Below are positions 18,070 to 63,744 of a DNA stretch of 64,000 bases, piece by piece; position 1 is the stretch's first letter, and each line of letters opens with the position of its first letter. The stretch covers positions 102,114,001 through 102,178,000 of the forward strand of contig JAGIQG010000009.1 in NCBI GenBank assembly GCA_024679065.1. Reading direction: 5' to 3'. This DNA is from Sphyrna mokarran. Lineage: Eukaryota. Under the pieces are notes generated by a model. That model had not been told where the DNA came from. It did no database searches and was given only the letters and a program-made list of their open reading frames with translations. A program made the translations under genes and the position numbers.

Positions 18070-18260
18070 GGGCTGGCTGTGCAGTGACAGGGGGGTTTCT
18101 GGTTTTGCAGTGACAGGGGGGTTTCTGGTTTTGCAGTGACATTGGGGCTGCTGGCTGTGCAGTGACAGGAGAGGTGCTGGCTGTGCAGTGACAAGAGAGG
18201 TGTTGGCTGTGCAGTGACAGGGGGGTTTCTGGTTTTGCAGTGACAGGGGGGCTGCTGGCT
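18070..18260. repeat. Short tandem repeat (~24-30 bp units, core TGCAGTGACA, ~7 copies) in the putative 5' UTR
   Basis: Units such as GGCTGTGCAGTGACAGGGGG and GGTTTTGCAGTGACAGGGGG repeated immediately before the ATG. Confidence 0.85.
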
Positions 18261-18276: not shown

Positions 18277-18349
18277 ATGTACGGAACAAGACATTGCTCT
18301 CAATTTACCGATGTTTTCTTGCTCACCGGTTGCTTCATATTCCTCTGCG
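18277..18349 (+). CDS. Exon 1 (signal peptide) of an IgSF type-I membrane receptor: MYGTRHCSQFTDVFLLTGCFIFLC
   Basis: ATG at 18277, hydrophobic leader, strong donor G|GTAAGT at 18350 in phase 1, matching the phase-1 acceptor of the V exons; promoter-like motifs lie just upstream. Confidence 0.8.
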
Positions 18350-18589
18350 GTAAGTTTACATCTTTTTGTTTCATATCCTCCATCAGGGTCATTCTGTCTC
18401 GGAGTTCCCTGTCTGTCTGCCTGTGTGTGTGTGTTGGAGCTGGGAATTCAGCCCTCGCTGATCTATAGTGGATGAAACTCAGCTATTTCTTCATATCTTC
18501 ATTCTCCTTCAGTTTGAGAGCAGAGATATTCGGTGACACTTTCTATCTCGACACACTTATACCGACTAGCATGTGTTCCAGACCCTCAA

Positions 18590-30559: not shown

Positions 30560-31731
30560 ACAGGAGAAAGAATGTAGGGGAGAGGTATATGACAAAGGGT
30601 AGAACTATTAAGAATATAGAAACGCAGAGGGACCTGGGGGGTGCAGGTCCACAAGTCTCTGAAGGTGACAGACAGGTGGAGAAGGTTGTGAAGAAAGCAT
30701 ATGGTACGTTAGCCTTTATAGGAAGGAGTATGGAGTACAAGAGCTGGCCTTTAATGTTGCAATTGTATAAAACGTTGGTTAGACCTCATTTCTGGTACTG
30801 CGTTCAGTTCTTGTCACCTTACTACTGGAAGGACGTGGAGACTCTGGAGAGAATGCAGAGGAGGTTTACCAAGATGCTGCCTGGTATGGAAGGTCTGAGT
30901 TACGAGGAAGGTAGGCAAATTGGGGCTGTTTTCCTTAGAAGGATGTAGACTTAGAGGAGATCTAATAGAGGTGTACAAGATTATGAGGGGTATAGATAGA
31001 GTAAATAGGGTTAAGCTTTTTCCTAGGATGGACTCAAATAGCACGAGGGGTCATGGGCTTAGGGTGAGGGGGGTAAGGTACAATTTGGATGCTAGAGGGA
31101 GTTTTTTCACACAGAGAGTGGTGGGGGTATGGAATGACTTCCAAATAAAGTAGTGGAGGCAGGCACTCTGGAGTTATTTCAGAGATACTCAGATGGGCAC
31201 ATGAACAGATGGGAATGGAGGGATAGAAAACTGATTTAAAATAGGGATCATGATGATGATATTGAGTGTTTTTATCGTACAGGTGCGTCGGTCCGCCTTG
31301 TTGTCTGACAAGGGGCATATACGCAATGGGTCATGAGAGGGCTGCTCTTGGATTTTTCGAGAGTATCCTAGTGCTTCACGTCGTTAGTGTATGCTTAACC
31401 TGGACCATTTGATGGGCAACACGACAGCTCAGTGACAATCGCTGTGCTGTGTAGATACATGGATTTGGGCCTGTGTCTGTGGGAGTTTGCGCATTCTCCC
31501 CGTGCTTGCGTGGGTTTTCTCCGGGTGCTCCGGTTTCCTCCCACATCCCAAAGATGTGCTCTTAGGCTAATTGGCAGAACAAATTCTCCCTAAATTGTCT
31601 CAAATTTGGTTTTAATCCATAGATCTATAAGCATAGACGAGGATCACGGGGAGAAGTTGGAACATCGAGGTGGCGGTGCAGGCTCATTGGGCTGAAGGCC
31701 CTGTTTCCCGTGCTGTTTTGTCCTTTGTTCT
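30560..31731 (+). mobile_element. CR1 family X 3' fragment (left boundary of the triplication)
   Basis: RT C-terminal motifs KAYGTLAFI, LVRPH, LFSLE, then a long 3' UTR ending in TTGTTCT repeats. Confidence 0.9.
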
Positions 31732-32607
31732 AGATTGCTAAATGTCAGAGTGATTTAGTTACTAGGTGGGTGATGTAATAACTAGTGAATGCCTCTCCAT
31801 TCTCAATACACAGGTCTTGGTTTTCTTTTATTTATTGAAGCCAATGGAAATTAGGATTGGGAGAGTTTTTTCTCATTCATTTGTCGGAAATAAGCATTAC
31901 TGGCTGGCCAGCATTTATTACCCATTCCTAATTGCTCTTGAGAAGGTGTAGTGAGCTGCCTTCTTGAACTGCTGCAGTTCACGTGCTGTGGATTTTCCCA
32001 TTAGGGAGGGAATTCCAGGATTTTGAGCCAGCAACTGAGATGGAACAGTGAAATATTTCCAAGTCAGGATAGTGAGTGGCTTGGAGGGAAACTTGCAGGT
32101 GGTGGTGTTGCTATATATTTGCTCCCCTTCTAGATGAAAGTGGTCTTCAGTTGGAAGGTGCTTTCTAAGGATTTTTGGTGAATTTCTGTTGAGTGGATCA
32201 CTAACACTGGTTTTAAAGTACCAATATTATATAAAGTCAAGTTCAACATGAAAATGCCTTTGATTTTTATCTCAGATTTTCAGATTGTTGCAGGCTTTAA
32301 TGTCAGACTTTTAATTGATCACAAGCTTACTCTTCATGTAACAAGCTGAGTAATAGAGTTCTCTTAAACAGTTATTTTAATACAAACTATAACAAGGACA
32401 TAGGGAGGGTACAGTTCACATCCCTGTAGCTAGCCAAAAGTGGTACATTCCAAGATACAAAGGCAATTAAAGTTTTCAAAATCGATTACAAGTAATTAGC
32501 ATAAACTAATCATAATCACTTTAAACTTGCTTCATTATAATATCCAATCAGTAAGAAAACTTCATGGTACAGCTCATTTCTGTATCTGTGGATCACTCCC
32601 ATTTTCT

Positions 32608-35423
32608 TTCCAAAAATATACTTTATTCATAAATTTCAAATAAACCATTTCAAAATTACATGTCTTGAATTGCAAAAGCAGTGCAGAATCCAAACGTTCA
32701 TACAGTTCTATACAAAGTGCATTCAAATCATTTCAAAACTTACTAACTCTACATGCCCCAAAAACCGCCGTGTACCGCCACTGCTCAGACCGGCGCACAG
32801 CAACCCCCTATTCCCAAAAAATATACTTTATTCATACAAACTCAAACAATCCTTCAAATTACATGAGTTTGTATTGCAAACAGTGCAGAACTAAAACAAA
32901 AACTTTTAAAATAATTCTACACAAATTACAATCATAACATGTCAGAACTTACAAATGTACACATGCTCAAAAATTACTGTGTGCCATTGTTGTTCAGATT
33001 GGCACAGTTACGCAGGCCGAGGGTATTCTGCAGTTCCCTCTGCAGGGCCTTGGATCTGCCTTTGTTAAAAGGCCTTATAGTGTGACCTTTTCCCATTGTG
33101 CCTTTGCGGCAGCTGTCCCAAGCTTCAGTGCCTCCCTCGCACGTAGTCCTGGACCTTGGAGTGTGCCAGTCTGCAACACTCGGTCGAGGACAGTTCTTTC
33201 AACTGGAAGATCAGCAAGTTTCAGGTGGACCAAAGTGCGTTCTTCACTGAGTTGATGACCTTCCAGCAGTAGTTGATATTCGTCTTGGTGTGTGAACCCG
33301 GAAACAGCCCGTAGAGCACAGAGTCCTGTGTCGTCAAGCTGATTGGGATGAACCTCGACAAATACCACTGCATCTCACTCCAGACTTCTTTGAAAGGCAC
33401 ATTCCACAAGGAGGTGTGCGACTGTCTCATCAGCCCAGCAGCCGCTTCGACAGCAGCGTGCGGTGCTGTTGAGACCTGGAGTGTGCATAAAGGATCTGAT
33501 GGGGAGTGCCCTTCTCACCAGCAGCCAAGCCAGATCTTGGTGCTTGTTTGTAAGTTCTGGTGATGAGGTGTTCTGCCAGATGACACTGACAGTTTGCTCA
33601 GGGAACCATCCGACAGGGTCCATCATCTCCTTTTCTCTCAGGACCTTAAGGACATTACGTGCTAACCACTGCTTAGTCGCCATGTAGTCAAAGGTGTGTT
33701 TGTGGAAACATTTCTCCGCGAAGGACAGGTGCTGTGGTACAGTCCAACGACTCGGAGCGTTCTGCAGCAGTGTGGCCAGACCCATTCCCCGTAATACTTG
33801 GGATAGGTACAACATCAAAAAGTAACGGCACTTGCTGTTGGTGTACCGAGGATCTACGCACAGCTTGATGCAGTCACACACAAAGGTGGCCATCAGGATG
33901 AGAGTGGCGTTGGGAACATTTTTCCCTCTGTTCTCTGGAGATTTGTGCATCGCCTCCCTCTGGACGCAATTCATCTTGGATCCCCAGATGAACTTGAAGA
34001 TGGCCTGCGTCACTGCTGCAGCACAGTATCTGGGGATAGGCCACACCTGCACCATGTACAACAACACGGACAGCACCTCGCACCGGATCACCAGTTTTTC
34101 CCTGTGATGGAGAGGGAGTGTAACTCCCACCAGCCCAATTTCTTCCTGGCTTTCGCGATGCGCTCGTCCCAGTTTTCAGTGCATGCCCCTGCCGCTCCAA
34201 ACCATATCCCCAGTACCTTGGATTTGTCTGCCCAGTTCCCAAAGAACATGGTCTTGTTCTTACCTGGTTGACTTGGCTCCTGAGGCCAGCTCGAACTGCT
34301 CACAGACCTGGAGGAGCCTGCGAACAGACGAACGGTCCGAGCAGACAGCCACGTCATCCATGTACAGGGAGGCTTTAACCTGTGTGCCTCCGCTGCCTGG
34401 GATTGTCACCTCTTTGATGCCTGGGTCGCTTCTTAGGGCCTCAGCAAGGGTTCAATGCAACACACAAAAAGGACGGAGGAGAGAGGGCAGCCCTGTCTGA
34501 CTCCAGACCTGATTTGGAAGCTATCTGACTCCCACCCATTGACTGAAACTGCGCTACTGATGTATGTGTAGAGCAGCTGGATCCAATTGCGGATACCCTC
34601 CCTGAAACCCATTTTGGAGAGCACATCCATCCTGTTGCGATGCGAAATTCTGTCAAACGCCTTCTCCTGGTCTAGGCTGATGAGGCAAGTATCCACCCGC
34701 CTGTCCTGCACGTAGGCGATTGTATCCCCGAGTAGTGTGAGGGTATCAGAGATCTTCCTGCCGGGTACAGCACAGGTTTGATCAGAATGGATCACTGACC
34801 CCAGAGCAGATTTGACCCGGTTGGCTAGATGATTTTGGCTAGAATTTTGTAATCCGTGTTCAATAGTGAAATGGGTCGCCAATTTCTAATTTCTTCCCTT
34901 TCCCCCTTTGCTTGTAGATGAAGGTGATGATGATGCCTTTCCTCATGGATTCTGACATCCTGACTTCCAGAAGCATACTCTCGTATACTTCCAGGAGGTC
35001 TGGGCCCGTCAAGTCCCACAACGCCGAGTAAAACTCAGCCGGTAAGCCATCCCTTCCAGGAGTTTTACCCTTCTGAAGGGACTCGACGGCCTTCGTCACT
35101 TTGTCCAGAGATACCGGTCTGTCCAAGTCTGACCGGTCTAAGAACTGCGCGATAGACAACAGGAAAGACTGGAGGCCGTGCTGTCTGTTCGCTTCAGGTC
35201 GTACAGTCCGGCATAGAAGGATTTCCAGATCCTCAGAATGTCAGAGTGTGATGACCTTACCGAGCCGTCTTCTTCCTTCAGGCTGCTGATCATAGAGGTT
35301 TCTCTGTGTACCTTCTGGAAGAAGAAACACAAGCACTTTTCATCCTGTTCCACAGAGGGGACGCTGGACCGGAAGATGAACTTGGCAGCCTCCGAGGCAA
35401 ACAGCGAGGCTTGCTGGCTCTTC
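32608..35423 (-). mobile_element. Tx1-clade (L1 group) LINE, 5'-truncated and frameshifted, copy A
   Basis: KTPGRDGLPAEFY, NWRPISLLN, DQEKAFD, GVRQGCPLS, YMDD, C-terminal CCHC; AATAAA and A-rich tail; TSD ATCACTCCCATTTTCT at 32592-32607 and 35424-35439. Confidence 0.92.
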
Positions 35424-35876
35424 ATCACTCCCATTTTCTAATTACAGATGTCTGATTTATGTGCTTTGCCAGACTAAAGACCTTGTTGTCTGTCTGTGAT
35501 GACTCTTATAAGAAGACCTTTGTTTTTCAGCCTGTGCGATTTTTAAACTTCTGTGACTACTAACCCTTCCACAGACCATTCTATTCCTTTCCCCGTGTGG
35601 GATTACTGTGTATTCTATTTCCCTCCCCCTTGTTCTCTTTCTATTCAATGCTGCACTTTCTACAATATCTCAGCAGTAATACGGCTTCCTCTGGGAGCTC
35701 CAGTTTCCTCCCACAGCCTGAGAAACATGCTGGTTAGGTGCACTGCCCATGCTAAATTCTCCACTTGTCTCAGTTCACTCCCATTTCTCCTTTTGTGCAG
35801 AGTTTAATTTATTGGTGGGAGAAACACTGTCAAATGTGACTGAAAACTAATTCACTTTTCCTTTCTGTTCATGCAG

Positions 35877-36269
35877 CCTCAGGAAGCAGTCTTACAGTGA
35901 CAGTCCATCAGACAGAAGTGAATGGAACAGTGAAGCAGTCTGTCCTTCTCCCTTTACGCTACTCCACTTCTACAAACTACTCCATTTTAAGGTTATACTG
36001 GAGTTTATTTCCCAGAAACACTCCATTTGTGAAGCTGACCCGATCAAACTGCTCTCCAGACCCTGACGGATCTGGGTATAACTGTTCAGATCGCCTGATG
36101 ATAACTCCTTCCTACCGGGACCGAATTCACCTCCATCCAGAGAATGGATCCTTGTTACTGTGGAATGTACAGTCCAATGATAGCGGCATCTATGTGTTCT
36201 CTGTTTATGATGATGATGCGGGCGCAATCAGGAAAGGCAATGTGACTCTAACAGTCTATAACAGAACAG
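35877..36269 (+). CDS. Ig V-set exon copy 1 (CD2/SLAM/CEACAM-N/HEPACAM-like, no B-F disulfide)
   Basis: Branch-like AACTAAT, polypyrimidine tract and CAG acceptor; AG|GTAAGA donor; 393 nt, phase 1-1, open; motifs VNGTVKQSVLLP, W in strand C, YRDRIHLHPENGSLLL, DSGIY, GNVTLTV. Confidence 0.9.
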
Positions 36270-36589
36270 GTAAGAATTCACAATCTCCTTATTAAACTTT
36301 TCCTTCCAGAAAGGGGATTCTGGGAAATTAGTTAAAACTGTTTCAAACTACTGAAGTTCCCGAAAGGCCTTCAGTAAGATACCAGATATGAGCTTGATGA
36401 GAAATGTGAGAAGATATGGGGCAGGTGTGTAAAATGTCTTTCCCACCTCCTACCGTGGCTGAAATGAGAATTCTCCTCCATGAACTGATCACATACAATC
36501 ATACCACTGGGCCGCCGCTCGCCAAGGGCCGGGCCGCCGCTCGCCGAGGGCCGGGCCGCCGCTCGCCGAGGGCCGGGCCGCCGCTCGCC

Positions 36590-37652
36590 AAGGAATACAA
36601 GTATAGGTATCTAGATGGATAAGTAACTGGCTTGGTAATAGGAGAAAGAGAGTAATAGTGTAGGGTGTTTTTCTAGCTGGAGGTTGGTCAATAGTGGTGT
36701 GCTGCAGGGCTTGGTACTGGGACCTCTTCTATTTGTAATATATATAAATGACTTGGAGGAGGGAGTAAGTGGAGTGATCAGCAAGTTTGCTGATGACATA
36801 AAGATGACTGGACTTGCGGATAGTGAGGAGTTTTGTCAGGTGATGCAGCAGCACATAGATAGGCTGGTAGCTTGGGCAGATAGATGGCAGATGGAATTCA
36901 ATCCTGATAAATGTGAGGTGATGCATTTCAGGAGAAAGAATGTAGGGGAGAGGTATATGATAAAGGGTAGACCTATTAAGAGTATAGAAACGCAGAGGGA
37001 CCTGGGGGTGCAAGTCTTTGAAGGTGGCAAAGCAAGTGGAGAAGGTTGTGAAGAAAGCATATGGTATGCTAACCTTTATAGGAAGGGGCATAGAGTACAA
37101 GAGCTGTTTAAAGTTGTAGTTGTATAAAACATTGGTTAGACCTCATTTGGAATACTGCGTCTAGTTCTGGTCGCCTTACTACTAGAAGGACATGGAGACT
37201 CTGGAGAGAGTGCAGAGGAGGTTTACGAAGATGCTGCCTGGTATGGAAGGGTCATGAGAGGGCTGCTCTTGGACTTTTCGAGAGTATCCTAGTGCTTCAC
37301 GTCGTTAGTGTATGCTTAACCTGGACCATTTGATGGGCAACACGACAGCTCAGTGACTATCGCTGTGCTGTGCAGATACATGGATTTGGGCCTGTGTCTG
37401 TGGGAGTTTGCATATTCTCCCTGTGCTTGCGTGGGTTTTCTCTGGGTGCTCCGGTTTCCTCCCACATCCCAAAGATGTGCTCTTAGGCTAATTGGCAGAA
37501 CAAATTCTCCCTAAATTGTCTCAAATTTGGTTTTAATCCATAGATCTATAAACATAGACAAGGATCACGGGGAGAAGTTGGAACATCGAGGTGGCGGTGC
37601 AGGCTCATTGGGCTGAAGGCCCTGTTTCCCGTGCTGTTTTGTTCTTTGTTCT
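36590..37652 (+). mobile_element. Chimeric CR1 family X copy at junction A/B (~430 bp missing)
   Basis: RT fragment (SGVLQGLVLGP, FADD) joined directly to the 3' UTR at 37250. Confidence 0.85.
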
Positions 37653-38528
37653 AGATTGCTAAATGTCAGAGTGATTTAGTTACTAGGTGGGTGATGTAAT
37701 AACTAGTGAATGCCTCTCCATTCTCAATACGCAGGTCTTGGTTTTCTTTTATTTATTGAAGCCAATGGAAATTAGGATTGGGAGAGTTTTTTCTCATTCA
37801 TTTGTGGGACATAGGCATTACTGGCTGGCCAGCATTTATTACCCATCCCTAATTGCTCTTGAGAAGGTGTAGTGAGCTGCCTTCTTGAACTGCTGCAGTT
37901 CACATGCTGTGGACTTTCCCATTAGGGAGGGAATTCCAGGATTTTGAGCCAGCAACTGAGATGGAACAGCGAAATATTTCCAAGTCAGGATAGTGAGTGG
38001 CTTGGAGGGAAACTTGCAGGTGGTGGTGTTGCTATATATTTGCTCCCCTTCTAGATGAAAGTGGTCTTCAGTTGGAAGGTGCTTTCTAAGGATTTTTGGT
38101 GAATTTCTGTTGAGTGGATCACTAACACTGGTTTTAAAGTACCAATATTATATAAAGTCAAGTTCAACATGAAAATGCCTTTGATTTTTATCTCAGATTT
38201 TCAGATTGTTGCAGGCTTTAATGTCAGACTTTTAATTGATCACAAGCTTACTCTTCATGTAACAAGCTGAGTAATAGAGTTCTCTTAAACAGTTATTTTA
38301 ATACAAACTATAACAAGGACATAGGGAGGGTACAGTTCACATCCCTGTAGCTAGCCAAAAGTGGTACATTCCAAGATACAAAGGCAATTAAAGTTTTCAA
38401 AATCGATTACAAGTAATTAGCATAAACTAATCACAATCACTTTAAACTTGCTTCATTATAATATCCAATCAGTAAGAAAACTTCATGGTACAGCTCATTT
38501 CTGTATCTGTGGATCACTCCCATTTTCT

Positions 38529-41348
38529 TTCCAAAAATATACTTTATTCATAAATTTCAAATAAACCATTTCAAAATTACATGTCTTGAATTGCAAAAGC
38601 AGTGCAGAATCCAAACATTCATACAGTTCTATACAAAGTGCATTCAAATCATTTCAAAACTTACTAACTATATACATGCCCCAAAAACCGCCGTGTACCG
38701 CCACTGCTCAGACCGGCGCACAGCAACCCCCTATTCCCAAAAAATATACTTTATTCATACAAACTCAAACAATCCTTCAAATTACATGAGTTTGTATTGC
38801 AAACAGTGCAGAACTAAAACAAAAACTTTTAAAATAATCCTACACAAATTACAATCATAACATGTCAGAACTTACAAATGTACACATGCTCAAAAATTAC
38901 TGTGTGCCATTGTTGTTCAGATTGGCACAGTTACGCAGACCGAGGGTATTCTGCAGTTCCCTCTGCAGGGCCTTGGATCTGCCTTTGTTAAAAGGCCTTA
39001 TAGTGTGACCTTTTCCCATTGTGCCTTTGCGGCAGCTGTCCCAAGCTTCAGTGCGTCCCTCGCACGTAGTCCTGGACCTTGGAGTGTGCCAGTCTGCAAC
39101 ACTCGGTCGAGGACAGTTCTTTCAACTGGAAGATCAGCAAGTTTCGGGTGGACCAAAGTGCGTTCTTCACTGAGTTGATGACCTTCCAGCAGTAGTTGAT
39201 ATTCGTCTTGGTGTGTGAACCCGGAAACAGCCCGTAGAGCACAGAGTCCTGTGTCGTCAAGCTGCTTGGGATGAACCTCGACAAATAACTTCATCTCACT
39301 CCAGACTTCTTTGCAAAGGCACATTCCACAAGGAGGTGTGCGACTGTCTCATCAGCCCAGCAGCCGCTTCGACAGCAGCGTGCGGTGCTGTTGAGACCTG
39401 GAGTGTGCATAAAGGATCTGATGGGGAGTGCCCTTCTCACCAGCAGCCAAGCCAGATCTTGGTGCTTGTTTGTAAGTTCTGGTGATGAGGTGTTCTGCCA
39501 GATGACACTGACAGTTTGCTCAGGGAACAATCCGACAGGGTCCATCATCTCCTTTTCTCTCAGGACCTTAAGGACATTACGTGCTAACCACTGCTTAGTC
39601 GCCATGTAGTCAAAGGTGTGTTTGTCGAAACATTTCTCCGCGAAGGACAGGTGCTGTGGTACAGTCCAACGACTCGGAGCGTTCTGCAGCAGTGTGGCCA
39701 GACCCATTCCCCGTAATACTTGGGACAGGTACAACATCAAAAAGTAACGGCACTTGCTGTTGGTGTACCGAGGATCTACGCACAGCTTGATGCAGTCACA
39801 CACAAAGGTGGCCATCAGGATGAGAGTGGCGTTGGGAACATTTTTCCCTCTGTTCTCTGGAGATTTGTGCATCGCCTCCCTCTGGACGCGATTCATCTTG
39901 GATCCCCAGATGAACTTGAAGATGGCCTGCGTCACTGCTGCAGCACAGTATCTGGGGATAGGCCACACCTGCGCCATGTACAACAACACGGACAGCACCT
40001 CGCACCGGATCACCAGGTTTTTCCCTGTGATGGAGAGGGAGTGTAACTCCCACCAGCCCAATTTCTTCCTGGCTTTCGCGATGCGCTCGTCCCAGTTTTC
40101 AGTGCATGCCCCTGCCGCTCCAAACCATATCCCCAGTACCTTGGATTTGTCTGCCCAGTTCCCAAAGAACATGGTCTTGCTCTTACCTAGTTGACTTGGC
40201 TCCTGAGGCCAGCTCGAACTGCTCACAGACCTGGAGGAGCCTGCGAACAGACGAACGGTCCGAGCAGAAGACAGCCACGTCATCCATGTACAGGGAGGCT
40301 TTAACCTGTGTGCCTCCGCTGCCTGGGATTGTCACCTCTTTGATGCCTGGGTCGCTTCTTAGGGCCTCAGCAAGGGTTCAATGCAACACACAAAAAGGAC
40401 GGAGGAGAGAGGGCAGCCCTGTCTGACTCCAGACCTGTTTTGGAAGCTATCTGACTCCCACCCATTGACTGAAACTGCGCAACTGATGTCTGTGTAGAGC
40501 AGCTGGATCCAATTGCGGATACCCTCCCCAAAACCCATTTTGGAGAGCACATCCATCCTGTTGCGGTGCGAAATTCTGTCAAACGCCTTCTCCTGGTCTA
40601 GGCTGATGAGGCAGGTATCCACCCGCCTGTCCTGCACGTAGGCGATCGTATCCCTGAGTCGTGCAAGGCTATCAGGGATCTTCCTGCCGGGTACAGCACA
40701 GGTTTGATCAGAATGGATCACTGACCCCAGAGCAGATTTGACCTGGTTGGCGATGATTTTGGCTAAAATTTTATAATCCACATTCAATAGTGAAATGGGT
40801 CGCCAATTTCTAATTTCTTCCCTTTCCCCCTTTGCTTGTAGATGAAGGTGATGATGATGCCTTTCCTCATGGATTCTGACATCCTGACTTCCAGAAGCAT
40901 ACTCTCGTATACTTCCAGGAGGTCTGGGCCCGTCAAGTCCCACAACGCCGAGTAAAACTCAGCCGGTAAGCCATCCCTTCCAGGAGTTTTACCCTTCTGA
41001 AGGGACTCGACGGCCTTCGTCACTTTGTCCAGAGATACCGGTCTGTCCAAGTCTGACCGGTCTAAGAACTGCGCGATAGACAACAGGAAAGACTGGGAGG
41101 CCGTGCTGTCTGTTCGCTTCAGGTCGTACAGTCCGGCATAGAAGGATTTCCAGATCCTCAGAATGTCAGAGTGTGATGACCTTACCGAGCCGTCTTCTTC
41201 CTTCAGGCTGCTGATCATAGAGGTTTCTCTGTGTACCTTCTGGAAGAAGAAACACAAGCACTTTTCATCCTGTTCCACAGAGGGGACGCTGGACCGGAAG
41301 ATGAACTTGGCAGCCTCCGAGGCAAACAGCGAGGCTTGCTGGCTCTTC
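38529..41348 (-). mobile_element. Tx1-clade LINE, copy B (duplicated with the unit)
   Basis: Same ends and TSD (38513-38528, 41349-41364). Confidence 0.92.
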
Positions 41349-41801
41349 ATCACTCCCATTTTCTAATTACAGATGTCTGATTTATGTGCTTTGCCAGACT
41401 AAAGACCTTGTTGTCTGTCTGTGATGACTCTTATAAGAAGACCTTTGTTTTTCAGCCTGTGCGATTTTTAAACTTCTGTGACTACTAACCCTTCCACAGA
41501 CCATTCTATTCCTTTCCCCGTGTGGGATTACTGTGTATTCTATTTCCCTCCCCCTTGTTCTCTTTCTATTCAATGCTGCACTTTCTACAATATCTCAGCA
41601 GTAATACGGCTTCCTCTGGGAGCTCCAGTTTCCTCCCACAGCCTGAGAAACATGCTGGTTAGGTGCACTGCCCATGCTAAATTCTCCACTTGTCTCAGTT
41701 CACTCCCATTTCTCCTTTTGTGCAGAGTTTAATTTATTGGTGGGAGAAACACTGTCAAATGTGACTGAAAACTAATTCACTTTTCCTTTCTGTTCATGCA
41801 G

Positions 41802-42194
41802 CCTCAGGAAGCAGTCTTACAGTGACAGTCCATCAGACAGAAGTGAATGGGACAGTGAAGCAGTCTGTCCTTCTCCCTTTACGCTACTCCACTTCTACAA
41901 ACTACTCCATTTTAAGGTTATACTGGAGTTTATTTCCCAGAAACACTCCATTTGTGAAGCTGACCCGATCAAACTGCTCTCCAGACCCTGATGGATCCGG
42001 GTATAACTGTTCAGATTGGCTGGTGATAACTCCTTCCTACCGGGACCGAATTCACCTCCATCCAGAGAATGGATCCTTGTTACTGTGGAATGTACAGTCC
42101 AATGATAGCGGCATCTATGTGTTCTCTGTTTATGATGATGATGCGGGCGCAATCAGGAAAGGCAATGTGACTCTAACAGTCTATAACAGAACAG
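41802..42194 (+). CDS. Ig V-set exon copy 2
   Basis: Same splice signals as copy 1; 6 nt differences from copy 1 giving 2 aa changes (RLM to WLV); open frame. Confidence 0.88.
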
Positions 42195-42473
42195 GTAAGA
42201 ATTCACAATCTCCTTATTAAACTTTTCCTTCCAGAAAGGGGATTCTGGGAAATTAGTTAAAACTGTTTCAAACTACTGAAGTTCCCGAAAGGCCTTCAGT
42301 AAGATACCAGATATGAGCTTGATGAGAAATGTGAGAAGATATGGGGCAGGTGTGTAAAATGTCTTTCCCACCTCCTACCGTGGCTGTACTGAGAATTCTC
42401 CTCCATGAACTGACCACATACAATCATGCCACTCCGGGCCACCGCTCGCCGAGGGCCGGGCCGCCGCTCGCCA

Positions 42474-43533
42474 AGGAATACAAGTATAGGTATCTAGATG
42501 GATAAGTAACTGGCTTGGTAATAGGAGAAAGAGAGTAATAGTGTAGGGTGTTTTTCTAGCTGGAGGTCGGTCAATAGTGGTGTGCCGCAGGGCTCGGTAC
42601 TGGGACCTCTTCTATTTGTAATATATATACATGACTTGGAAGAGGGAGTAAGTGGAATGATCAACAAGTTTGCAGATGATATAAAGATGGCTGGACTTGC
42701 AGATAGTGAGGAGCATTGTCAGGTGATGCAGCAGGACAAATAGGCTTCTACCTTGGGCAGACAGATGGCAGATGGAATTCAATCCTGATAAATGTGAGGT
42801 GATGCATTTCGAGAGAAAGAATGTAGGGGAGAGGTATATGATAAAGGGTAGACCTATTAAGAGTATAGAAACGCAGAGGGACCTGGGGGTGCAAGTCTTT
42901 GAAGGTGGCAAAGCAAGTGGAGAAGGTTGTGAAGAAAGCATATGGTATGCTAACCTTTATAGGAAGGGGCATAGAGTACAAGAGCTGTTTAAAGTTGTAG
43001 TTGTATAAAACATTGGTTAGACCTCATTTGGAATACTGCGTCTAGTTCTGGTCGCCTTACTACTAGAAGGACATGGAGACTCTGGAGAGAGTGCAGAGGA
43101 GGTTTAACGAAGATGCTGCCTGGTATGGAAGGTCCATGAGAGGGCTGCTCTTGGACTTTTCGAGAGTATCCTAGTGCTTCACGTCGTTAGTGTATGCTTA
43201 ACCTGGACCATTTGATGGGCAACACGACAGCTCAGTGACTATCGCTGTGCTGTGCAGATACATGGATTTGGGCCTGTGTCTGTGGGAGTTTGCGCATTCT
43301 CCCCGTGCTTGCGTGGTTTTCTCCGGGTGCTCCGGTTTCCTCCCACATCCCAAAGATGTGCTCTTAGGCTAATTGGCAGAACAAATTCTCCCTAAATTGT
43401 CTCAAATTTGGTTTTAATCCATAGATCTATAAACATAGACAACGATCACGGGGAGAAGTTGGAACATCGAGGTGGCGGTGCAGGCTCATTGGGCTGAAGG
43501 CCCTGTTTCCCGTGCTGTTTTGTCCTTTGTTCT
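42474..43533 (+). mobile_element. Chimeric CR1 family X copy at junction B/C
   Basis: Same structure as 36590-37652. Confidence 0.85.
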
Positions 43534-44398
43534 AGATTGCTAAATGTCAGAGTGATTTAGTTACTAGGTGGGTGATGTAATAACTAGTGAATGCCTCTCC
43601 ATTCTCAATACACAGGTCTTGGTTTTCTTTTATTTATTGAAGCCAATGGAAATTAGGATTGGGAGAGTTTTTTCTCATTCATTTGTGGGACATAGGCATT
43701 ACTGGCTGGCCAGCATTTATTACCCATCCCTAATTGCTCTTGAGAAGGTGTAGTGAGCTGCCTTCTTGAACTGCTGCAGTTCACATGCTGTGGACTTTCC
43801 CATTAGGGAGGGAATTCCAGGATTTTGAGCCAGCAACTGAGATGGAACAGCGAAATATTTCCAAGTCAGGATAGTGAGTGGCTTGGAGGGAAACTTGCAG
43901 GTGGTGGAGTTGCTATATATTTGCTCCCCTTCTAGATGAAAGTGGTCTTCAGTTTCTAAGGATTTTTGGTGAATTTCTGTTGAGTGGATCACTAACACTG
44001 GTTTTAAAGTACCAATATTATATAAAGTCAAGTTCAACATGAAAATGCCTTTGATTTTTATCTCAGATTTTCAGATTGTTGCAGGCTTTAATGTCAGACT
44101 TTTAATTGATCACAAGCTTACTCTTCATGTAACAAGCTGAGTAATAGAGTTCTCTTAAACAGTTATTTTAATACAAACTATAACAAGGACATAGGGAGGG
44201 TACAGTTCACATCCCTGTAGCTAGCCAAAAGTGGTACATTCCAAGATACAAAGGCAATTAAAGTTTTCAAAATCGATTACAAGTAATTAGCATAAACTAA
44301 TCACAATCACTTTAAACTTGCTTCATTATAATATCCAATCAGTAAGAAAACTTCATGGTACAGCTCATTTCTGTATCTGTGGATCACTCCCATTTTCT

Positions 44399-47228
44399 TT
44401 CCAAAAATATACTTTATTCATAAATTTCAAATAAACCATTTCAAAATTACATGTCTTGAATTGCAAAAGCAGTGCAGAATCCAAACATTCATACAGTTCT
44501 ATACAAAGTGCATTCAAATCATTTCAAAACTTACTAACTATATACATGCCCCAAAAACCGCCGTGTACCGCCACTGCTCAGACCGGCGCACAGCAACCCC
44601 CTATTCCCAAAAAATATACTTTATTCATACAAACTCAAACAATCCTTCAAATTACATGAGTTTGTATTGCAAACAGTGCAGAACTAAAACAAAAACTTTT
44701 AAAATAATCCTACACAAATTACAATCATAACATTTCAGAACTTACAAATGTACACATGCTCAAAAATTACTGTGTGCCATTGTTGTTCAGATTGGCACAG
44801 TTACGCAGACCGAGGGTATTCTGCAGTTCCCTCTGCAGGGCCTTGGATCTGCCTTTGTTAAAAGGCCTTATAGTGTGACCTTTTCCCATTGTGCCTTTGC
44901 GGCAGCTGTCCCAAGCTTCAGTGCGTCCCTCGCACGTAGTCCTGGACCTTGGAGTGTGCCAGTCTGCAACACTCGGTCGAGGACAGTTCTTTCAACTGGA
45001 AGATCAGCAAGTTTCGGGTGGACCAAAGTGCGTTCTTCACTGAGTTGATGACCTTCCAGCAGTAGTTGATATTCGTCTTGGTGTGTGAACCCGGAAACAG
45101 CCCATAGAGCACAGAGTCCTGTGTCGTCAAGCTGCTTGGGATGAACCTCGACAAATAACTTCATCTCACTCCAGACTTCTTTGCAAAGGCACATTCCACA
45201 AGGAGGTGTGCGACTGTCTCATCAGCCCAGCAGCCGCTTCGACAGCAGCGTGCGGTGCTGTTGAGACCTGGAGTGTGCATAAAGGATCTGATGGGGAGTG
45301 CCCTTCTCACCAGCAGCCAAGCCAGATCTTGGTGCTTGTTTGTAAGTTCTGGTGATGAGGTGTTCTGCCAGATGACACTGACAGTTTGCTCAGGGAACCA
45401 TCCGACAGGGTCCATCATCTCCTTTTCTCTCAGGACCTTAAGGACATTACGTGCTAACCACTGCTTAGTCGCCATGTGGTCAAGGGTGTGTTTGTGGAAA
45501 CATTTCTCGGCGAAGGACAGGTGCTGTGATACAGTCCAACTACTCGGAGTGTTCTGCGGCAGTGTAGCCAGATCCATTCCCCGTAATACTTGGGACAGGT
45601 ACAACATCAAAAAGTAACTGCACTTGCTGTTGGTGTACTGAGGATCTACGCACAGCTTGATGCAGTCACACACAAAGGTGGCCATCACGATGAGGGCGGC
45701 ATTGGGAACATTTTTCCCTCTGTTCTCTGGAGATTTGTCCATCGCCTCCCTCTGGATGCGATTCATCTTGGATCCCTAGATGAACTTGAAGATGGCCTGC
45801 GTCACTGCTGCAGCACAGTATCTGGGGATAGGCCACATCTGCGCCATGTACAACAACACGGTCAGCACCTCGCACCGGATCACCAGGTTTTTCCCTGTGA
45901 TGGAGAGGGAGTGTGACTCCCACCAGCCCTATTTCTTCCTGGCTTTCGCGATGCGCTCATCCCAGTTTTCAGTGCATGCCCCTGCCGCTCCAAACCATAT
46001 CCCCAGTACCTTGGATTTGTCTGCCCAGTTCCCAAAGAACATGGCCTCACTCTTACCCTGGTTGACTTTGGCTCCCGAGGCCAGCTCAAACTGCTCACAG
46101 ACCTGGAGGAGCCTGCGAACAGATGAAGGGTCCGAGCAGAAGACAGCCACTAAATTCCATGTACAGGGAGGCTTTTATCTGCATACCTTCACTGCCTGGA
46201 ATTGTCACCCCTTTGGTGCCTGGGTCCCTTCTTAGGGCCTTGGCAAGGGGTTCAATGCAACACACAAAAAGGACGGAGGAGAGAGGGCAGCCCTGTCTGA
46301 CTCCAGACCTGTTTTGAAAACTATCTGATTCCCACCCATTGACTGAAACTGCGCTATAGATGTCTGTGTAGAGCAATCGGATCCAATTGCGGATACCCTC
46401 CCCAAAACCGATTTTGGAGAGCACATCCCTCATGTTGCAGTCCGAAATTCTGTCAAAAGCCTTCTCCTGGTCTGGGCTGATGAGGCAGATATCCACCCGC
46501 CTGTCCTGCACGTAGGCGATCGTATCCCTGAGTAGTGCGAGGCTATCAGACACCTTCCTGCCGGGTACAGCACAGGTTTGATCAGAATGGATCACCGACC
46601 CCAGAGCAGATTTGACCCGGTTGCCGATGATTTTGGCTAAGATTTTATAATCCACATTCAATAGTGAAATTGGTCGCCAATTTCGAACTTCTTCCCTTTC
46701 CCCCTTTGCTTGTAGATGAAGGTGATGATGATGCCTTTCCTCATGGATTCTGACATCCTGCCTTCCAGAAGCATACTCTCATATACTTCCAGGAGGTCTG
46801 GACCCGTCAAGTCCCTCAACGCCAAGTAAAACTCAGCCGGTAAGCCATCCCTTCCAGGAGTTTTACCCTTCTGAAGGGACTCGACGGCCTTCGTCAGCTT
46901 GTCCAGAGATACCGGTCTGTCCAGACTGTCCTGCTCACCGTCATCTAAGACCTGCGCGATAGACGACAGGAAAGACTGGGAGGCCGTGCTGTCTGTTGGC
47001 TTCAGGTCATACAGTCCAGCATTGAAGGATTCCCAGATCCTCAGAATGTCAGACTGTGATGATCTTACCGAGCCGTCTTCTTCCTTCAGGCTGCTGATCA
47101 CAGAGGTTTCTCTGTGTACATTCTGGAAGAAGAAACAAGCACTTTTTGTGCTGTTCCACAGAACGGACTCTGGACCTGAAGATGACTTGGCGGCCTCCGA
47201 GGCAAACAGCGAGGCTTGCTGGCTCTTC
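44399..47228 (-). mobile_element. Tx1-clade LINE, copy C (duplicated with the unit)
   Basis: Same ends and TSD (44383-44398, 47229-47244). Confidence 0.92.
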
Positions 47229-47701
47229 ATCACTCCCATTTTCTAATTACAGATGTCTGATTTATGTGCTTTGCCAGACTAAAGGCCTTGTCGTCTATCT
47301 GTGAAGACTCTTATCAGAAGACCTTTGTTTTTCAGCCTGTGAGATTTTTAAACTTCTGTGACTACTAACCCTTCCACAGACCATTCTATTCCTTTCCCCG
47401 TGTGGGATTACTGTGTATTCTATTTCCCTCCCTCTTGTTCTTTTTCTATTCAATGCTGCACTTTCTACAATATCTCAGCAGTAATACGGCTTCCTCTGGG
47501 AGCTCCAGTTTCCTCCCACAGCCTGAGAAACGTGCTGGTTAGGTGCACTGCCCATGCTAAATTCTCCACAGAGTTGCCTCATTTTCCACTTGTCTCAGTT
47601 CACTCCCAATTCTCCTTTTGTGCAGAGTTTAATTTACTGGTGGGGGAAACACTGTCAAATGTGACTGAAAACTAACTCACTTTTCCTTTCTGTTCATGCA
47701 G

Positions 47702-48094
47702 CCTCAGGAAGCAGTCTTACTGTGACAGTCCATCAGACAGAAGTGAATGGGACAGTGAACCAGTCTGTCCTTCTCCCTTTACCCTACTCCACTTCTACAA
47801 ACTACTCCATTTTAAAGTTACGCTGGAGATTATTTCCCAGAAACACTCCACTTGTGACGCTGACCCGATCAAACTGCTCTCCAGACCCTGATGGATCCCA
47901 GTATAACTGTTCAGATCGCCTGATGATAACTGTTTCCTACCAGGACCGAGTTCACCTCTATCCAGAGAATGGATCCTTGTTACTGCGGAATGTACAGTCC
48001 AATGACAGCGGCGTCTATGTGTTCTCTGTTTATGATGATGATGCGGGCACAACCAGGATAGGCAATGTGACTCTAATAGTCTATAACAGGACAG
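47702..48094 (+). CDS. Ig V-set exon copy 3 (most divergent)
   Basis: Same splice signals (branch AACTAAC); 18 aa differences from copy 1; open frame, phase 1-1. Confidence 0.9.
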
Positions 48095-48371
48095 GTAAGA
48101 ATTCACAACCTCCTTATTAAACTTTTCCTTCCAGAAAGGGGATTCTGGGAAATTAGTTACAACTGTTTCAAACTAATGAAGTTCCCGAAAAGCCTTCAGT
48201 AAGATACCAGATATGAGCTTGATGAGAAATGTGAGAAGATATGGGGCAGGTGTGTAAAATGTCTTTCCCACCTCCTACCCTGGCTGTACTGAGAATTCTC
48301 CTCCATGAACTGACCACATACAATCATACCACTGGGCCACTGCTCGCCGAGGGCCGGGCCGCCGCTCGCTG

Positions 48372-49877
48372 AGGAATACAAGTACAAGTAGCTAGATGGA
48401 TAAGTAACTGGCTTGGTAATAGGAGACAGAGAGTAATAGTGAAAGGGTGTTTTTCCAGCTGGAGGTCGGTCAATAGTGGTGTGCCGCAGGGCTCGGTACT
48501 GGGACCTCTTCCATTTGTAATATATATACATGACTTGGAAGAGGGAGTAAGTGGAGTGATCAGCAAGTTTGCTGATGACATAAAGATGGCTGGACTTGCG
48601 GATAGTGAGGAGCATTGTCAGGCGATGCAGCAGGACATAGCAGGTACCTTGGGCAGATAGATGGCAGATGGAATTCAATCCTGATAAATGTGAGGTGATG
48701 CATTTCGGGAGAAATAATGTAGGGAAGAGGTATATGATAAAGGGTAGACCTATTAAGAGTATAGAAATGCAGAGAGACCTGGGTGTGCAAGTCTTTGAAG
48801 GTGGCAGAGCAAGTAGAGAAGGTTGTGAAGAAAGCATATGATATGCCAGCCTTTATAGGAAGGGGCATAGAGTACAAGAGCTGTTTAATGTTGCAGTTGT
48901 ACAGAACATTGGTTAGACCTCATTTGGAATACTGCGTCCAGTTCTGGTCGCCTTACTACCGGAAGGATGTGGAGACTCTGGAGAGAGTGCAGAAGTACCC
49001 GGATGCTGCCTGGTATGGAAGGTCTGAGTTATGAGGAAAGGTTAGGTAAATTGGGCTGTTTTCTTTAGAAAGACAGAGACTGAGAGGAGATCTAATAGAA
49101 GTGTACAAAATTATGAAGGGTATAGATAGAGTAAACAGGGTTAAGCTTTTTCCTATGTTAGAATCAAATATCACAAGAGGCCGTGGGCTTAGGGTGAGGC
49201 TGGCAGGGTATAATTTGGATGTAAGATGATTATGGGGTATGCAACGCACTGCCAAGTAAGGTGGTGGAGGCAGGCATGCTGGAGTTATTTACGAGATACT
49301 TAGGCACATGAGTGGAATAGGGATGGAGGGATATGGTAGACTGATTTAAGTAGGGATCATGAGCCTTGGGACATTCCTGGGAATTGCATAAGTTATGCAT
49401 GATGTTGATGTATTTCTGCTATTATCCTACTGGTACTTCGGTCCGCCTTGTTGCCTAACAAGGGGCATACATGCGATGGGTTGTGAGATGGCTGCTCTTG
49501 GATTTTTTGAGAGTAGCCTATTGCTTCACATCATTAGTGTATGCTTAAACTGGACCAGTTGATGGGCAACACGACATCTCAATGACTATCATGTTGCTGT
49601 GCAGATACATGGATTTGGCCCAGTATCTGTGGGAGTTTGCGCATTCTCCCCGTGCTTTTCTCCGGGTGCTCCAGTTTCCTCCCACATCCCAAAGATGTGC
49701 TCTTAGGCTGATTGGTGAAACAAATTGTCCCTAAATTGTCTCCCCAATTTAGTTCCAATGCATATTTCCGTAAACATAGACAAGGGTCATGGGTGGAAGT
49801 GGGAACGTTAAAATGGCAGCGCGGGCTCGTTGGGCTGAAGGTCCTGTTTCCCGTGCTGTGTTGCTCTTTGTTCTTTG
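48372..49877 (+). mobile_element. CR1 family X copy (right boundary of the triplication)
   Basis: GVPQGSVLGP, FADD and LVRPHLEYC motifs followed by the complete family X 3' UTR. Confidence 0.9.
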
Positions 49878-59799: not shown

Positions 59800-59946
59800 A
59801 CAGTGTGACTTCTAGCCCAACACATACAAGCCCAACAACTGACATGAATAAAGTCAAAAATATCGGTGTCCCTGCTGCTACTGCTGCTGTGAGTCTCCTC
59901 GTTATTCTCATCTGCTTGTACTTGGTGCAGACCAGGAAACACACAG
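59800..59946 (+). CDS. Stalk plus transmembrane exon: DSVTSSPTHTSPTTDMNKVKNIGVPAATAAVSLLVILICLYLVQTRKHT
   Basis: TTGTTTTGTTACAG acceptor, AG|GTATGT donor, 147 nt, phase 1-1; S/T/P-rich stalk, ~22-aa hydrophobic helix, basic stop-transfer RKH; absent from the ORF track. Confidence 0.85.
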
Positions 59947-63688: not shown

Positions 63689-63744
63689 GTTGCCAGCAGC
63701 AACAGGATTCGGCTCTCATGGAAACATCTGTTCAGCCTATTGAG
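63689..63744 (+). CDS. First cytoplasmic exon: GCQQQQDSALMETSVQPIE (gene continues beyond window)
   Basis: Perfect TACTAAC branch point 63664-63670, TTCAG acceptor, GAG|GTAAGA donor; phase 1 to 0 and open when joined to the TM exon. Confidence 0.75.

What the first reader, a model, noticed from the sequence alone, without database searches (positions are those of the whole stretch)
35877..48094. V1 and V3 exons are more diverged than their flanking intron, with changes clustered on the predicted binding face
Manual count V1 vs V3: 27 nt differences in 393 (~7%). Of these, 21 are non-synonymous (18 codons, three with double substitutions: Y>R, G>Q, P>V) and 6 are synonymous, with no stops or indels. 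The ~430 bp of intron just upstream differs at only ~13 sites plus one indel (~3%). Changes cluster in strand C (RLYWS>KLRWR), C' (FVK>LVT), the C'' region and the FG loop/G strand (AIRK>TTRI). V2's two changes (R>W, M>V) also fall in C''. The GFCC'C'' sheet is the ligand face in CD2/SLAM/CEACAM. Inference: diversifying selection. The overall dN/dS is only near 1, so this is suggestive rather than proven.
Basis: partly seen in the sequence, partly recalled or inferred. Interest (0 to 1): 0.72.

Follow-up and report, generated by a model that had tools for sequence, protein, structure and literature searches.

The report
Shark receptor with triplicated binding exon
A shark gene predicted to encode an inhibitory immune receptor carries three copies of its outer-domain exon; the third copy is no more diverged than the transposon DNA around it, but its amino-acid changes crowd onto the predicted binding face, likely through selection by pathogens.

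Summary
The counts are right (27/393 nt; 21 nonsynonymous, 6 synonymous; 13 intron changes), but the headline comparison is a comparator artefact. V3 lies in a 3.5-kb tract (45475-49020) that is about 6% diverged throughout: exon 6.9%, Tx1 7.1%, CR1 6.9%, all non-exon 6.2% (P=0.33). The chosen 430-bp intron sits in the tract's lowest stretch (P=0.004). Exon-wide dN/dS is 1.2; site-model tests are borderline (P 0.02-0.07). The clustering holds: 9 of 18 changed residues fall on 20 outward GFCC'C'' positions (10 changes per 44 nonsynonymous sites versus 6.2% neutral, P=3e-4; core 1 per 67), although front versus back sheet is not significant (P=0.15). The gene is one leader, three in-frame V exons, one transmembrane exon and an ITIM tail. 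It belongs to an unnamed jawed-vertebrate single-V receptor family with arginine-transmembrane partners; V domains group by species (AU p 4e-77), as in paired receptors. The two partners here are inverted and broken. An independent run shows V1, V2, V4 and V5 letters but no V3-private letters, so V3 may be polymorphic.

The parts
18277..18349 (+). Leader (signal peptide) exon, 24 codons plus one base, phase 1; the only leader-like match in 384 kb
   Evidence: close to the Mustelus protein P0003 N-terminus
31328..37249 (.). Repeat unit 1 (about 5.9 kb: CR1 end, SINE, intron, truncated Tx1 element, V1, CR1 piece)
37250..43134 (.). Repeat unit 2; both junctions (about 37250 and 43135) are the same fusion with a few bases of microhomology
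43135..49024 (.). Repeat unit 3; first 2.3 kb 0.5-1% from units 1/2, remainder about 6% from them
45475..49020 (.). Diverged tract with a sharp left edge near 45475; holds the Tx1 5' part, V3 and a CR1 piece
   Evidence: (24/2295 left vs 215/3515 right against unit 1)
35877..36269 (+). V1 exon, V-set domain without the B-F disulfide, C58-C69 pair, phase 1-1
41802..42194 (+). V2 exon, V1 with R72W and M74V
47702..48094 (+). V3 exon, 18 residues from V1; 9 of them at outward front-face positions (38, 40, 42, 50, 52, 104, 117, 119, 125); one extra N-glycan sequon at 19
47241..47701 (.).
59800..59946 (+). Stalk and uncharged transmembrane exon, phase 1-1, single copy
63689..63744 (+). First cytoplasmic exon (end read by eye). 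The last coding exon, with ITIM LTYTVI and a second tyrosine motif IIYALA, lies about 1.3 kb past the window end (locus L023)
   Evidence: motif consensus recalled

Best explanation
The three V exons belong to one gene predicted to encode an inhibitory (ITIM) receptor of an unnamed paired-receptor family; V1/V2 and V3 diverged at the neutral pace of their surrounding DNA overall, with the core likely held by purifying selection and the outward GFCC'C'' face likely driven apart by selection from binding partners, most likely pathogen adhesins. Shown: gene anatomy, frames, tract structure, equality of exon and transposon divergence, excess of changes at front-face positions, species-wise grouping of V domains. 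Inferred: a microhomology-joined duplication created the junction, unequal crossing-over added a third unit, and the 6%-diverged tract carrying V3 is either a long-lived allele brought in by a crossover near 45475 or an old duplicate whose first 2.3 kb was later homogenised (about even odds). Inferred: the gene would thus offer two or three binding specificities from one inhibitory tail, either as stacked domains or, as the catshark gene models suggest, one V exon per transcript. Ligand, expression and splicing are untested.
For: Front-face outward codons: 9 of 20 changed vs 1 of 34 core, 3 of 14 back-sheet, 5 of 62 loop/other; 10 N changes per 44.2 sites vs neutral 6.2% P=3e-4, vs 7.1% P=9e-4, vs 10.5% (about the tract's highest window) P=0.014; similar with two other definitions of the face. 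Holds when adjacent doubles count once (P=9e-4 to 1.3e-3) and without CpG transitions (7/40 vs 5.3%, P=0.005). Model pLDDT 90.9 with strands as assumed; F-strand parity agrees with the printed CEACAM alignment (108 = Q89, 110 = I91), residues named as binding-face in PMC8013792 (passages). Front positions vary more than back positions in 8 shark (P=0.014) and 20 bird/turtle relatives (P=0.001). Both lineages carry front changes, and V3's 9 derived changes are all nonsynonymous and absent from V4/V5. Tx1 decay from the family majority is of similar depth in both halves, shared in the first half and mostly private in the tract, so it is a fair neutral clock. Paired setting: two inverted paralogues 46 and 61 kb upstream share only the exon +/- about 12 bp (87-91%) and are followed by an Arg-type transmembrane exon homologous to catshark P0010; ITIM and Arg-type V domains pair by species in this genome, catshark (92%) and epaulette shark (92%), and a clade of the 5 Arg-type domains is rejected (AU p 4.4e-77). 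This matches the indicators listed in PMC13278318 and the Xenopus CEACAM pattern in PMC5112662 (passages).
Against: Exon-wide numbers are neutral-like: 21 N seen vs about 17 expected at 6.2%; M0 omega 1.1-1.7, not different from 1 (P 0.23-0.69); M1a vs M2a P=0.067 (V1-3), 0.055 (all five), 0.020 (without V4), and the top sites are adjacent double changes, which are as common in the non-coding tract (40/180 vs 7/27) and are known to mislead such tests (10.1101/165969, search listing only). Front vs back sheet P=0.15; front vs loops in sharks P=0.31; in V3-V5 and V4-V5 the front excess is not significant (P 0.11-0.12). Classes were drawn from strand alternation after the changes were known, without coordinates; C'' parity is uncertain. 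The F-strand centre of the face (106, 108, 110) is unchanged. V1-V3 carry changes at 26-27, where position 27 is serine in all 28 relatives scored, which suggests some relaxation. The Arg-type partners are broken here, so a working pair is absent in this genome.
Confidence: 0.6

Rival explanations
1. Neutral drift of a redundant exon copy: after duplication V3 or V1/V2 evolved with relaxed constraint, and the front-face pattern is chance plus ordinary tolerance of surface residues.
For: Exon equals flanking transposon divergence; omega not different from 1; changes at the otherwise invariant position 27; front vs back sheet P=0.15; activating partners are pseudogenes.
Against: Under uniform drift 3.4 of 21 N changes would be front-facing, 10 are (P=8e-4); the front rate (23%) exceeds the neutral rate rather than merely reaching it; no stop, indel or splice loss in three copies; core 1/67 (P=0.075 below neutral).
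Confidence: 0.22
2. The V1/V3 differences were imported by exon-limited gene conversion from the inverted Arg-type paralogues, not fixed by selection in this gene.
For: Exon-limited similarity to V4/V5 and species-wise V tree indicate that conversion has happened; V3 shares 11 states with both V4 and V5, and 4 sites are split between them; V2's codon 74 matches V4/V5.
Against: Those 11 states are as easily ancestral (several also in Mustelus); V3's 9 derived changes are in neither V4 nor V5; V1-V3 group apart from V4/V5 (91/94); exon divergence needs no extra source beyond the tract's age.
Confidence: 0.08
3. Selection on the face is real but driven by a host ligand or by self-recognition (homophilic specificity), not by pathogens.
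For: CEACAMs use this face for homophilic binding too (PMC8013792 passages); the F-strand centre is conserved while the rim changes.
Against: Repeated inhibitory/activating pairs kept alike by conversion in opposite orientation are the pattern tied to pathogen decoys in PMC5112662 and PMC13278318; no co-varying host ligand is known.
Confidence: 0.1
4. History A (independent of the selection question): V3 is an ancient allele of the same exon, joined in cis to V1/V2 by a crossover near 45475, i.e. a heterogeneous duplication that fixes heterozygosity.
For: Sharp breakpoint; the first 300 bp after the junction differ by 6/301 while the bases before it differ by 18/271 (P=0.006), so the junction looks younger than the V1/V3 split; no donor paralogue for the tract found elsewhere in the genome; run X1 shows V1/V2/V4/V5 letters and none private to V3.
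Against: 6% over 3.5 kb needs a very old balanced or introgressed allele; divergence dips next to the exon instead of peaking; loss of V3 in X1 is also explained by unequal crossing-over from an old duplicate; contigs show presence, not absence.
Confidence: 0.45
5. History B: an old tandem duplication (6%) whose first 2.3 kb was later homogenised by conversion, while the part holding the selected exon escaped; unit 2 is a recent recombinant (first half like unit 3, second half like unit 1).
For: Unit 2 is 0.48% from unit 3 in its first half and 0-3% from unit 1 in its second; unit-1-specific changes rise toward the left edge; patchy divergence inside the tract. Escape of selected regions from conversion is recalled theory (Teshima and Innan), not seen.
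Against: Crossovers alone cannot homogenise unit 1's first half; a conversion tract would have to run to the edge of homology; left edge 2% vs right edge 6.6%.
Confidence: 0.45
6. The tandem array is an assembly artefact (haplotypes written in tandem).
For: Units 1 and 2 are about 1% apart; reads of the assembled individual were not among the listed runs.
Against: Three distinct units exceed two haplotypes; a defined microhomology junction occurs twice with small differences; an independent run holds both unit-1-type and unit-2-type letters, with V1/V2-type pieces at about twice the depth of V4 and V5 pieces (24.5-26 vs 9.9-11.8; weak, the tool warns depth is no copy number).
Confidence: 0.07

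Closest known systems
Xenopus and reptile CEACAM paired receptors (PMC5112662, PMC13278318; passages read)
   Same: ITIM gene with activating-type partners in opposite orientation; similarity limited to the V exon and its splice sites; nonsynonymous changes piling up on the CC'C''FG face; V domain without B-F disulfide, with the Arg-Asp pair (R82, D101).
   Different: No IgC domains; long C'-C'' hairpin closed by C58-C69; partners have an Arg in the transmembrane segment rather than an ITAM-like tail; the family is annotated full length in chicken and ducks, where PMC13278318 found no complete CEACAM gene; here the V exon is multiplied inside the inhibitory gene.
Unnamed single-V family in public annotations (e.g. 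Mustelus LOC144496850, catshark LOC119975690/LOC119976513, epaulette shark LOC132832807/LOC132832679, chicken LOC771657, platypus LOC114812908)
   Same: Same V domain (73% to Mustelus), same order of parts and tyrosine motifs; catshark isoforms X1 and X2 of one gene carry different V domains; chicken and duck models carry two to several tandem V domains.
   Different: All 13 elasmobranch hits have one V per protein; three V exons with an 18-residue split are seen only here. No tested function is annotated for any member seen.
CD2/SLAM family
   Same: V-set fold without B-F disulfide, GFCC'C'' face as presumed binding surface; a V+C Ig gene of this general build lies about 65 kb downstream (family label is my recall).
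   Different: No C2 domain between V and membrane; no complete ITSM in this gene.
Heterogeneous gene duplications such as mosquito ace-1 (PMC6121789, abstract read)
   Same: Two divergent versions of one locus held in cis on one chromosome.
   Different: Here the unit is one exon inside a gene, and the allelic origin is only about even odds.
Amphioxus VCBP3 V domain (2fbo, 1xt5)
   Same: Best structural match, Z 16.2, rmsd 2.5 A over 123 residues.
   Different: 20-21% identity; Z within about 1-2 of VSIG4, Siglec-15, B7-H3; shared fold shows no function or kinship.

Membership tests
Paired inhibitory/activating Ig receptors | Inhibitory member with cytoplasmic ITIM | tested here: met
   LTYTVI in the last exon; LTYS/LVYS-type motifs in shark relatives; consensus recalled
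Paired inhibitory/activating Ig receptors | Partner with near-identical ectodomain and charged transmembrane residue | tested here: met
   Arg-type partners in epaulette shark P0103 and catshark P0010 (92% V identity); in this genome V4 and V5 have the homologous exon but with a stop and a frameshift
Paired inhibitory/activating Ig receptors | Exon-limited homogenisation and opposite orientation | tested here: met
   417-bp match only, minus strand; V tree by species, AU p 4.4e-77; orientation tested in this genome only
Paired inhibitory/activating Ig receptors | Opposing signalling and a shared ligand shown by experiment | not testable with these tools
   none
Diversifying selection on the exon | Exon more diverged than neutral flanks | tested here: not met
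   6.87% vs 6.19%, P=0.33
Diversifying selection on the exon | Exon-wide dN/dS significantly above 1 | tested here: not met
   M0 vs omega=1 P 0.23-0.69; V2-V3 pair alone P 0.06 or 0.02 by site weighting
Diversifying selection on the exon | Site model with omega>1 class preferred | tested here: inconclusive
   M1a-M2a P 0.067, 0.055, 0.020 in three data sets; own implementation; driven by double changes
Diversifying selection on the exon | Nonsynonymous rate on the binding face above neutral | tested here: met
   10/44 vs 6.2%, P=3e-4; face from strand alternation
CEACAM | N domain without B-F cysteines, Arg-Asp salt bridge | tested here: met
   No cysteine in strands B or F; R82 and D101 present; feature from PMC4079198 passages
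CEACAM | IgC domains after the N domain in the ITIM member | tested here: not met
   V joins stalk/TM directly in the shark relatives with a TM; exons found here match that build
CEACAM | Absent as complete genes in fowl | tested here: not met
   Chicken and duck members are annotated full length while PMC13278318 reports no complete CEACAM in Galloanserae
CEACAM | Synteny with CEACAM loci | not tested
   flanking non-Ig genes were not identified
CD2/SLAM | V plus C2 ectodomain | tested here: not met
   no C2 domain in shark relatives
CD2/SLAM | ITSM TxYxxV/I | tested here: not met
   second motif reads IIYALA; consensus recalled
PD-1 | V domain with canonical B and F strand cysteines | tested here: not met
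   shark PD-1 keeps C54 and C123 (PMC12151841 passages); these V domains lack them

The most novel reading that the evidence does not exclude
An undescribed paired-receptor family that runs from chimaeras to birds and platypus repeatedly multiplies the V exon inside its inhibitory gene; in this shark an ancient balanced allele (V3) was captured in cis beside V1/V2, so that one ITIM gene carries a switchable cassette of pathogen-escape binding faces, one per transcript, after its activating decoys died.
Probability: 0.2. Interest if true: 0.75.

Novelty: new variant of a known kind. Interest (0 to 1): 0.5.

Why it matters
Paired receptors under pathogen pressure are well known in mammals, frogs and reptiles, but I found no description of this family or of such pairs in sharks in the six searches of the held library that bear on it (subscription papers are not covered). 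The locus gives a compact, testable case: three nearly identical domains that differ mainly on one face, a neutral clock beside them, a copy that may be polymorphic, and dead activating partners. If the cassette reading holds it would be an allele-to-exon route to receptor diversity in a shark. It is also a clear example of how choosing the nearest intron as neutral control can mislead inside a mosaic tandem repeat.

Tried and rejected
No RNA holder listed, so splicing and expression were not examined. The divergence of DNA beyond 49020 in run X1, the best test between histories A and B, could not be measured. ESM Atlas gave no answer for V3 or for P0003. No complex prediction was obtained. 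Protein search at near length found nothing. Earlier scan findings: none by place or sequence. Fold searches list only generic V-set domains; CEACAM N domains are not among the shown rows, which excludes nothing. Ectopic conversion of Tx1 from other copies as the cause of its 7% divergence was considered and largely rejected: most changes are rare or absent among 27 other copies, although polarity is uneven (64 derived in unit 3, 29 in units 1/2, 12 unclear of 105; P=4e-4), which I cannot explain. No leader exon was found for V4/V5. A small cytoplasmic exon suggested by relatives was not found. Searches for the Teshima-Innan model and for a shark mutation rate returned nothing usable, so no age in years is given. 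Supplements of PMC13278318 and PMC4079198 were not opened and may list shark CEACAM-like sequences.


Full report
Setting. The window is from a 2.77-Gb shark-like genome (G000, contig C1548). The nearest named protein is from Mustelus asterias (73% over the V domain). A 5.9-kb unit is present three times (31328-37249, 37250-43134, 43135-49024), each with one 393-nt V exon. Searching 384 kb with shark relatives gave one leader exon (18277-18349), V1, V2, V3, one stalk/transmembrane exon (59800-59946), a cytoplasmic exon (from 63689) and a last exon about 1.3 kb past the window with LTYTVI and IIYALA. All V exons are phase 1-1 with the same splice signals, so any subset keeps the frame.

Check of the counts. 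V1 vs V3: 27 nt, 21 nonsynonymous in 18 codons, 6 synonymous; dN/dS 1.21 (1.57 with transition weighting), not above 1. The upstream intron has 13 differences in 410-441 aligned sites and one indel.

The comparator. Unit 3 is a mosaic. Left of about 45475 it differs from units 1 and 2 by 24/2295 and 11/2295; right of it by 215/3515 and 199/3515. Within the right part the exon (6.87%) equals the Tx1 part (7.08%) and the CR1 piece (6.9%); against all non-exon sites (6.19%) P=0.33, and 34% of 316 windows of exon length are as diverged. Tx1 is a fair clock: against the majority of 27 other copies its total decay is about 6.6-7% in the homogenised half, nearly all shared, whereas in the diverged half totals are 3-11% and the shared part falls from 7% to 1-3%, the rest being private; polarity is uneven, 64 vs 29 of 105 sites with 12 unclear.

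Codon models. My own M0/M1a/M2a code on V1-V3, V1-V5 and V1-V3+V5 gave omega 1.7, 1.1, 1.3 (none different from 1) and M1a-M2a P=0.067, 0.055, 0.020; the top sites are mostly codons with double changes, and adjacent changes are as frequent in the non-coding tract (40 of 180 vs 7 of 27). Using V4/V5 as outgroup, 9 nonsynonymous and 2 synonymous changes map to the V1/V2 stem, 9 and 0 to V3, 4 are unclear and 3 synonymous ones separate V1 from both V2 and V3 (read); 18:2 has P 0.035-0.084. Suggestive only.

The face. The AlphaFold model (pLDDT 90.9) is a V-set fold with a long C'-C'' hairpin (strands 49-60, 67-75) and invariant C58/C69. No coordinates were returned, so I classed residues by alternation along the predicted strands, anchored on W41, L53, Y105/F107 and L124; the F-strand parity agrees with the CEACAM alignment and with binding residues Q89 and I91 in PMC8013792 (passages). 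Changed residues: front outward 9 of 20, back outward 3 of 14, loops/other 5 of 62, core 1 of 34. Front nonsynonymous rate 10/44 vs neutral 6.2% P=3e-4; vs other non-core residues P=0.001; vs back sheet P=0.15; two other definitions of the face (21 and 12 positions) give alike results. Outward positions 38, 40 and 42 of strand C all differ, none of the inward ones. The result survives counting doubles once and dropping CpG transitions. In 8 shark and 20 bird/turtle relatives the front is more variable than the back (P=0.014, 0.001), though not more than loops in sharks (P=0.31), and the 18 sites are more variable than others in sharks (P=0.002) but not in birds (P=0.14). Against: classes were drawn after seeing the data; V3-V5 and V4-V5 show no significant front excess; the F-strand centre is unchanged; position 27, serine in all 28 relatives scored, is R or P here.

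The family. Relatives occur in chimaera, sharks, rays, newt, caecilian, frogs, turtles, birds and platypus, nearly all annotated as uncharacterized (20 of the 150 listed representatives were looked up by name). Many tails bear tyrosine motifs; others are short with an arginine at the start of the transmembrane segment. In G000 two inverted paralogues lie 46 and 61 kb upstream; V4 has a stop at codon 20, V5 is open, and both are followed by an Arg-type transmembrane exon with a stop and a frameshift. Their similarity to V1-V3 is confined to the exon and about 12 bp either side. In a tree of 19 V domains, ITIM and Arg types pair by species (epaulette shark 100/100; catshark 91/83; this genome 94/98), and forcing the 5 Arg-type domains together is rejected (AU p 4.4e-77). 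This is the pattern described for Xenopus and reptile CEACAM pairs (PMC5112662, PMC13278318; passages), but the gene fails CEACAM, CD2/SLAM and PD-1 membership tests. In catshark, isoforms X1 and X2 of one gene carry different V domains on the same stalk and tail, an independent V-exon duplication with one V per model; X2's first exon does not look like a signal peptide, so this is a lead only. Chicken and duck models stack V domains in one chain.

History and polymorphism. Both junctions are the same microhomology fusion, so one duplication plus one unequal crossover likely made three units. The first 300 bp after the junction differ by 2%, the last bases before it by 6.6% (P=0.006), which favours V3's tract having entered as an already divergent allele; an old duplicate with later conversion is about as likely. 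In run X1, of 40 listed differences from V3 (206 more not shown) I checked the 28 outside high-depth repeats: 26 are unit-1 letters and 2 are V4/V5 letters; of 8 listed pieces the 5 on or near the exon match units 1/2, unit 2, V4 or V5 exactly by count; at V3-private codons 66 and 77 the other letter takes the whole depth (7 and 6 contigs). Contigs show presence, not absence, but this hints that V3 is not fixed and that the duplication is real.

Verdict. Observation partly confirmed; interpretation partly supported. Most likely an inhibitory paired-type receptor with a triplicated V exon whose copies diverged at a neutral overall rate but with a selected binding face (0.6). New variant of a known kind; interest 0.5.

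Noticed in passing
G000 C1548:102052315-102052718 (V5, minus strand) and the exon about 1.2 kb after it: V5 is open and its next exon has an early stop before the membrane segment, so if expressed it would be a short secreted V domain, a possible soluble decoy; no leader exon was found for it.
   Followed up: partly
window 18581-20871: 41-bp minisatellite, 56 copies, 230 bp after the leader exon; a 26-bp repeat (18073-18260) lies just before the start codon.
   Followed up: no
window 36509-36593, 42434-42476, about 48335-48372: 22-bp GC-rich repeat after each V exon with 3.9 copies in unit 1 and 2 in unit 2.
   Followed up: no
window 24139-27566, minus strand: Nearly whole CR1-type LINE: open frames of 757 and 235 aa separated by one stop, and a 182-aa upstream frame; family label recalled.
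   Followed up: no
window 53077-55897: Inverted pair of about 1.25 kb at 81.5% identity with frames resembling a Penelope-type endonuclease (label recalled).
   Followed up: no
L029:2283-7329, minus strand (about 65 kb past the window end): V exon plus constant-type Ig exon of a CD2/SLAM-like build.
   Followed up: partly
about 92 kb upstream of the window start; L074, L075, L076: More distant members of the same V family on this contig: a frameshifted V 92 kb upstream and open V exons at 102.52, 102.72 and 106.62 Mb.
   Followed up: no
V1-V3 codons 63-74: V2 matches V3 at codons 63 and 65 but V1 matches V3 at 72 and 74, while V2's 74 matches V4/V5: likely small conversion patches among the copies.
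   Followed up: partly
P0023 (Amblyraja) and P0075/P0077 (Mobula): Public gene models of this family contain transposon-derived segments and are probably mis-predicted.
   Followed up: no
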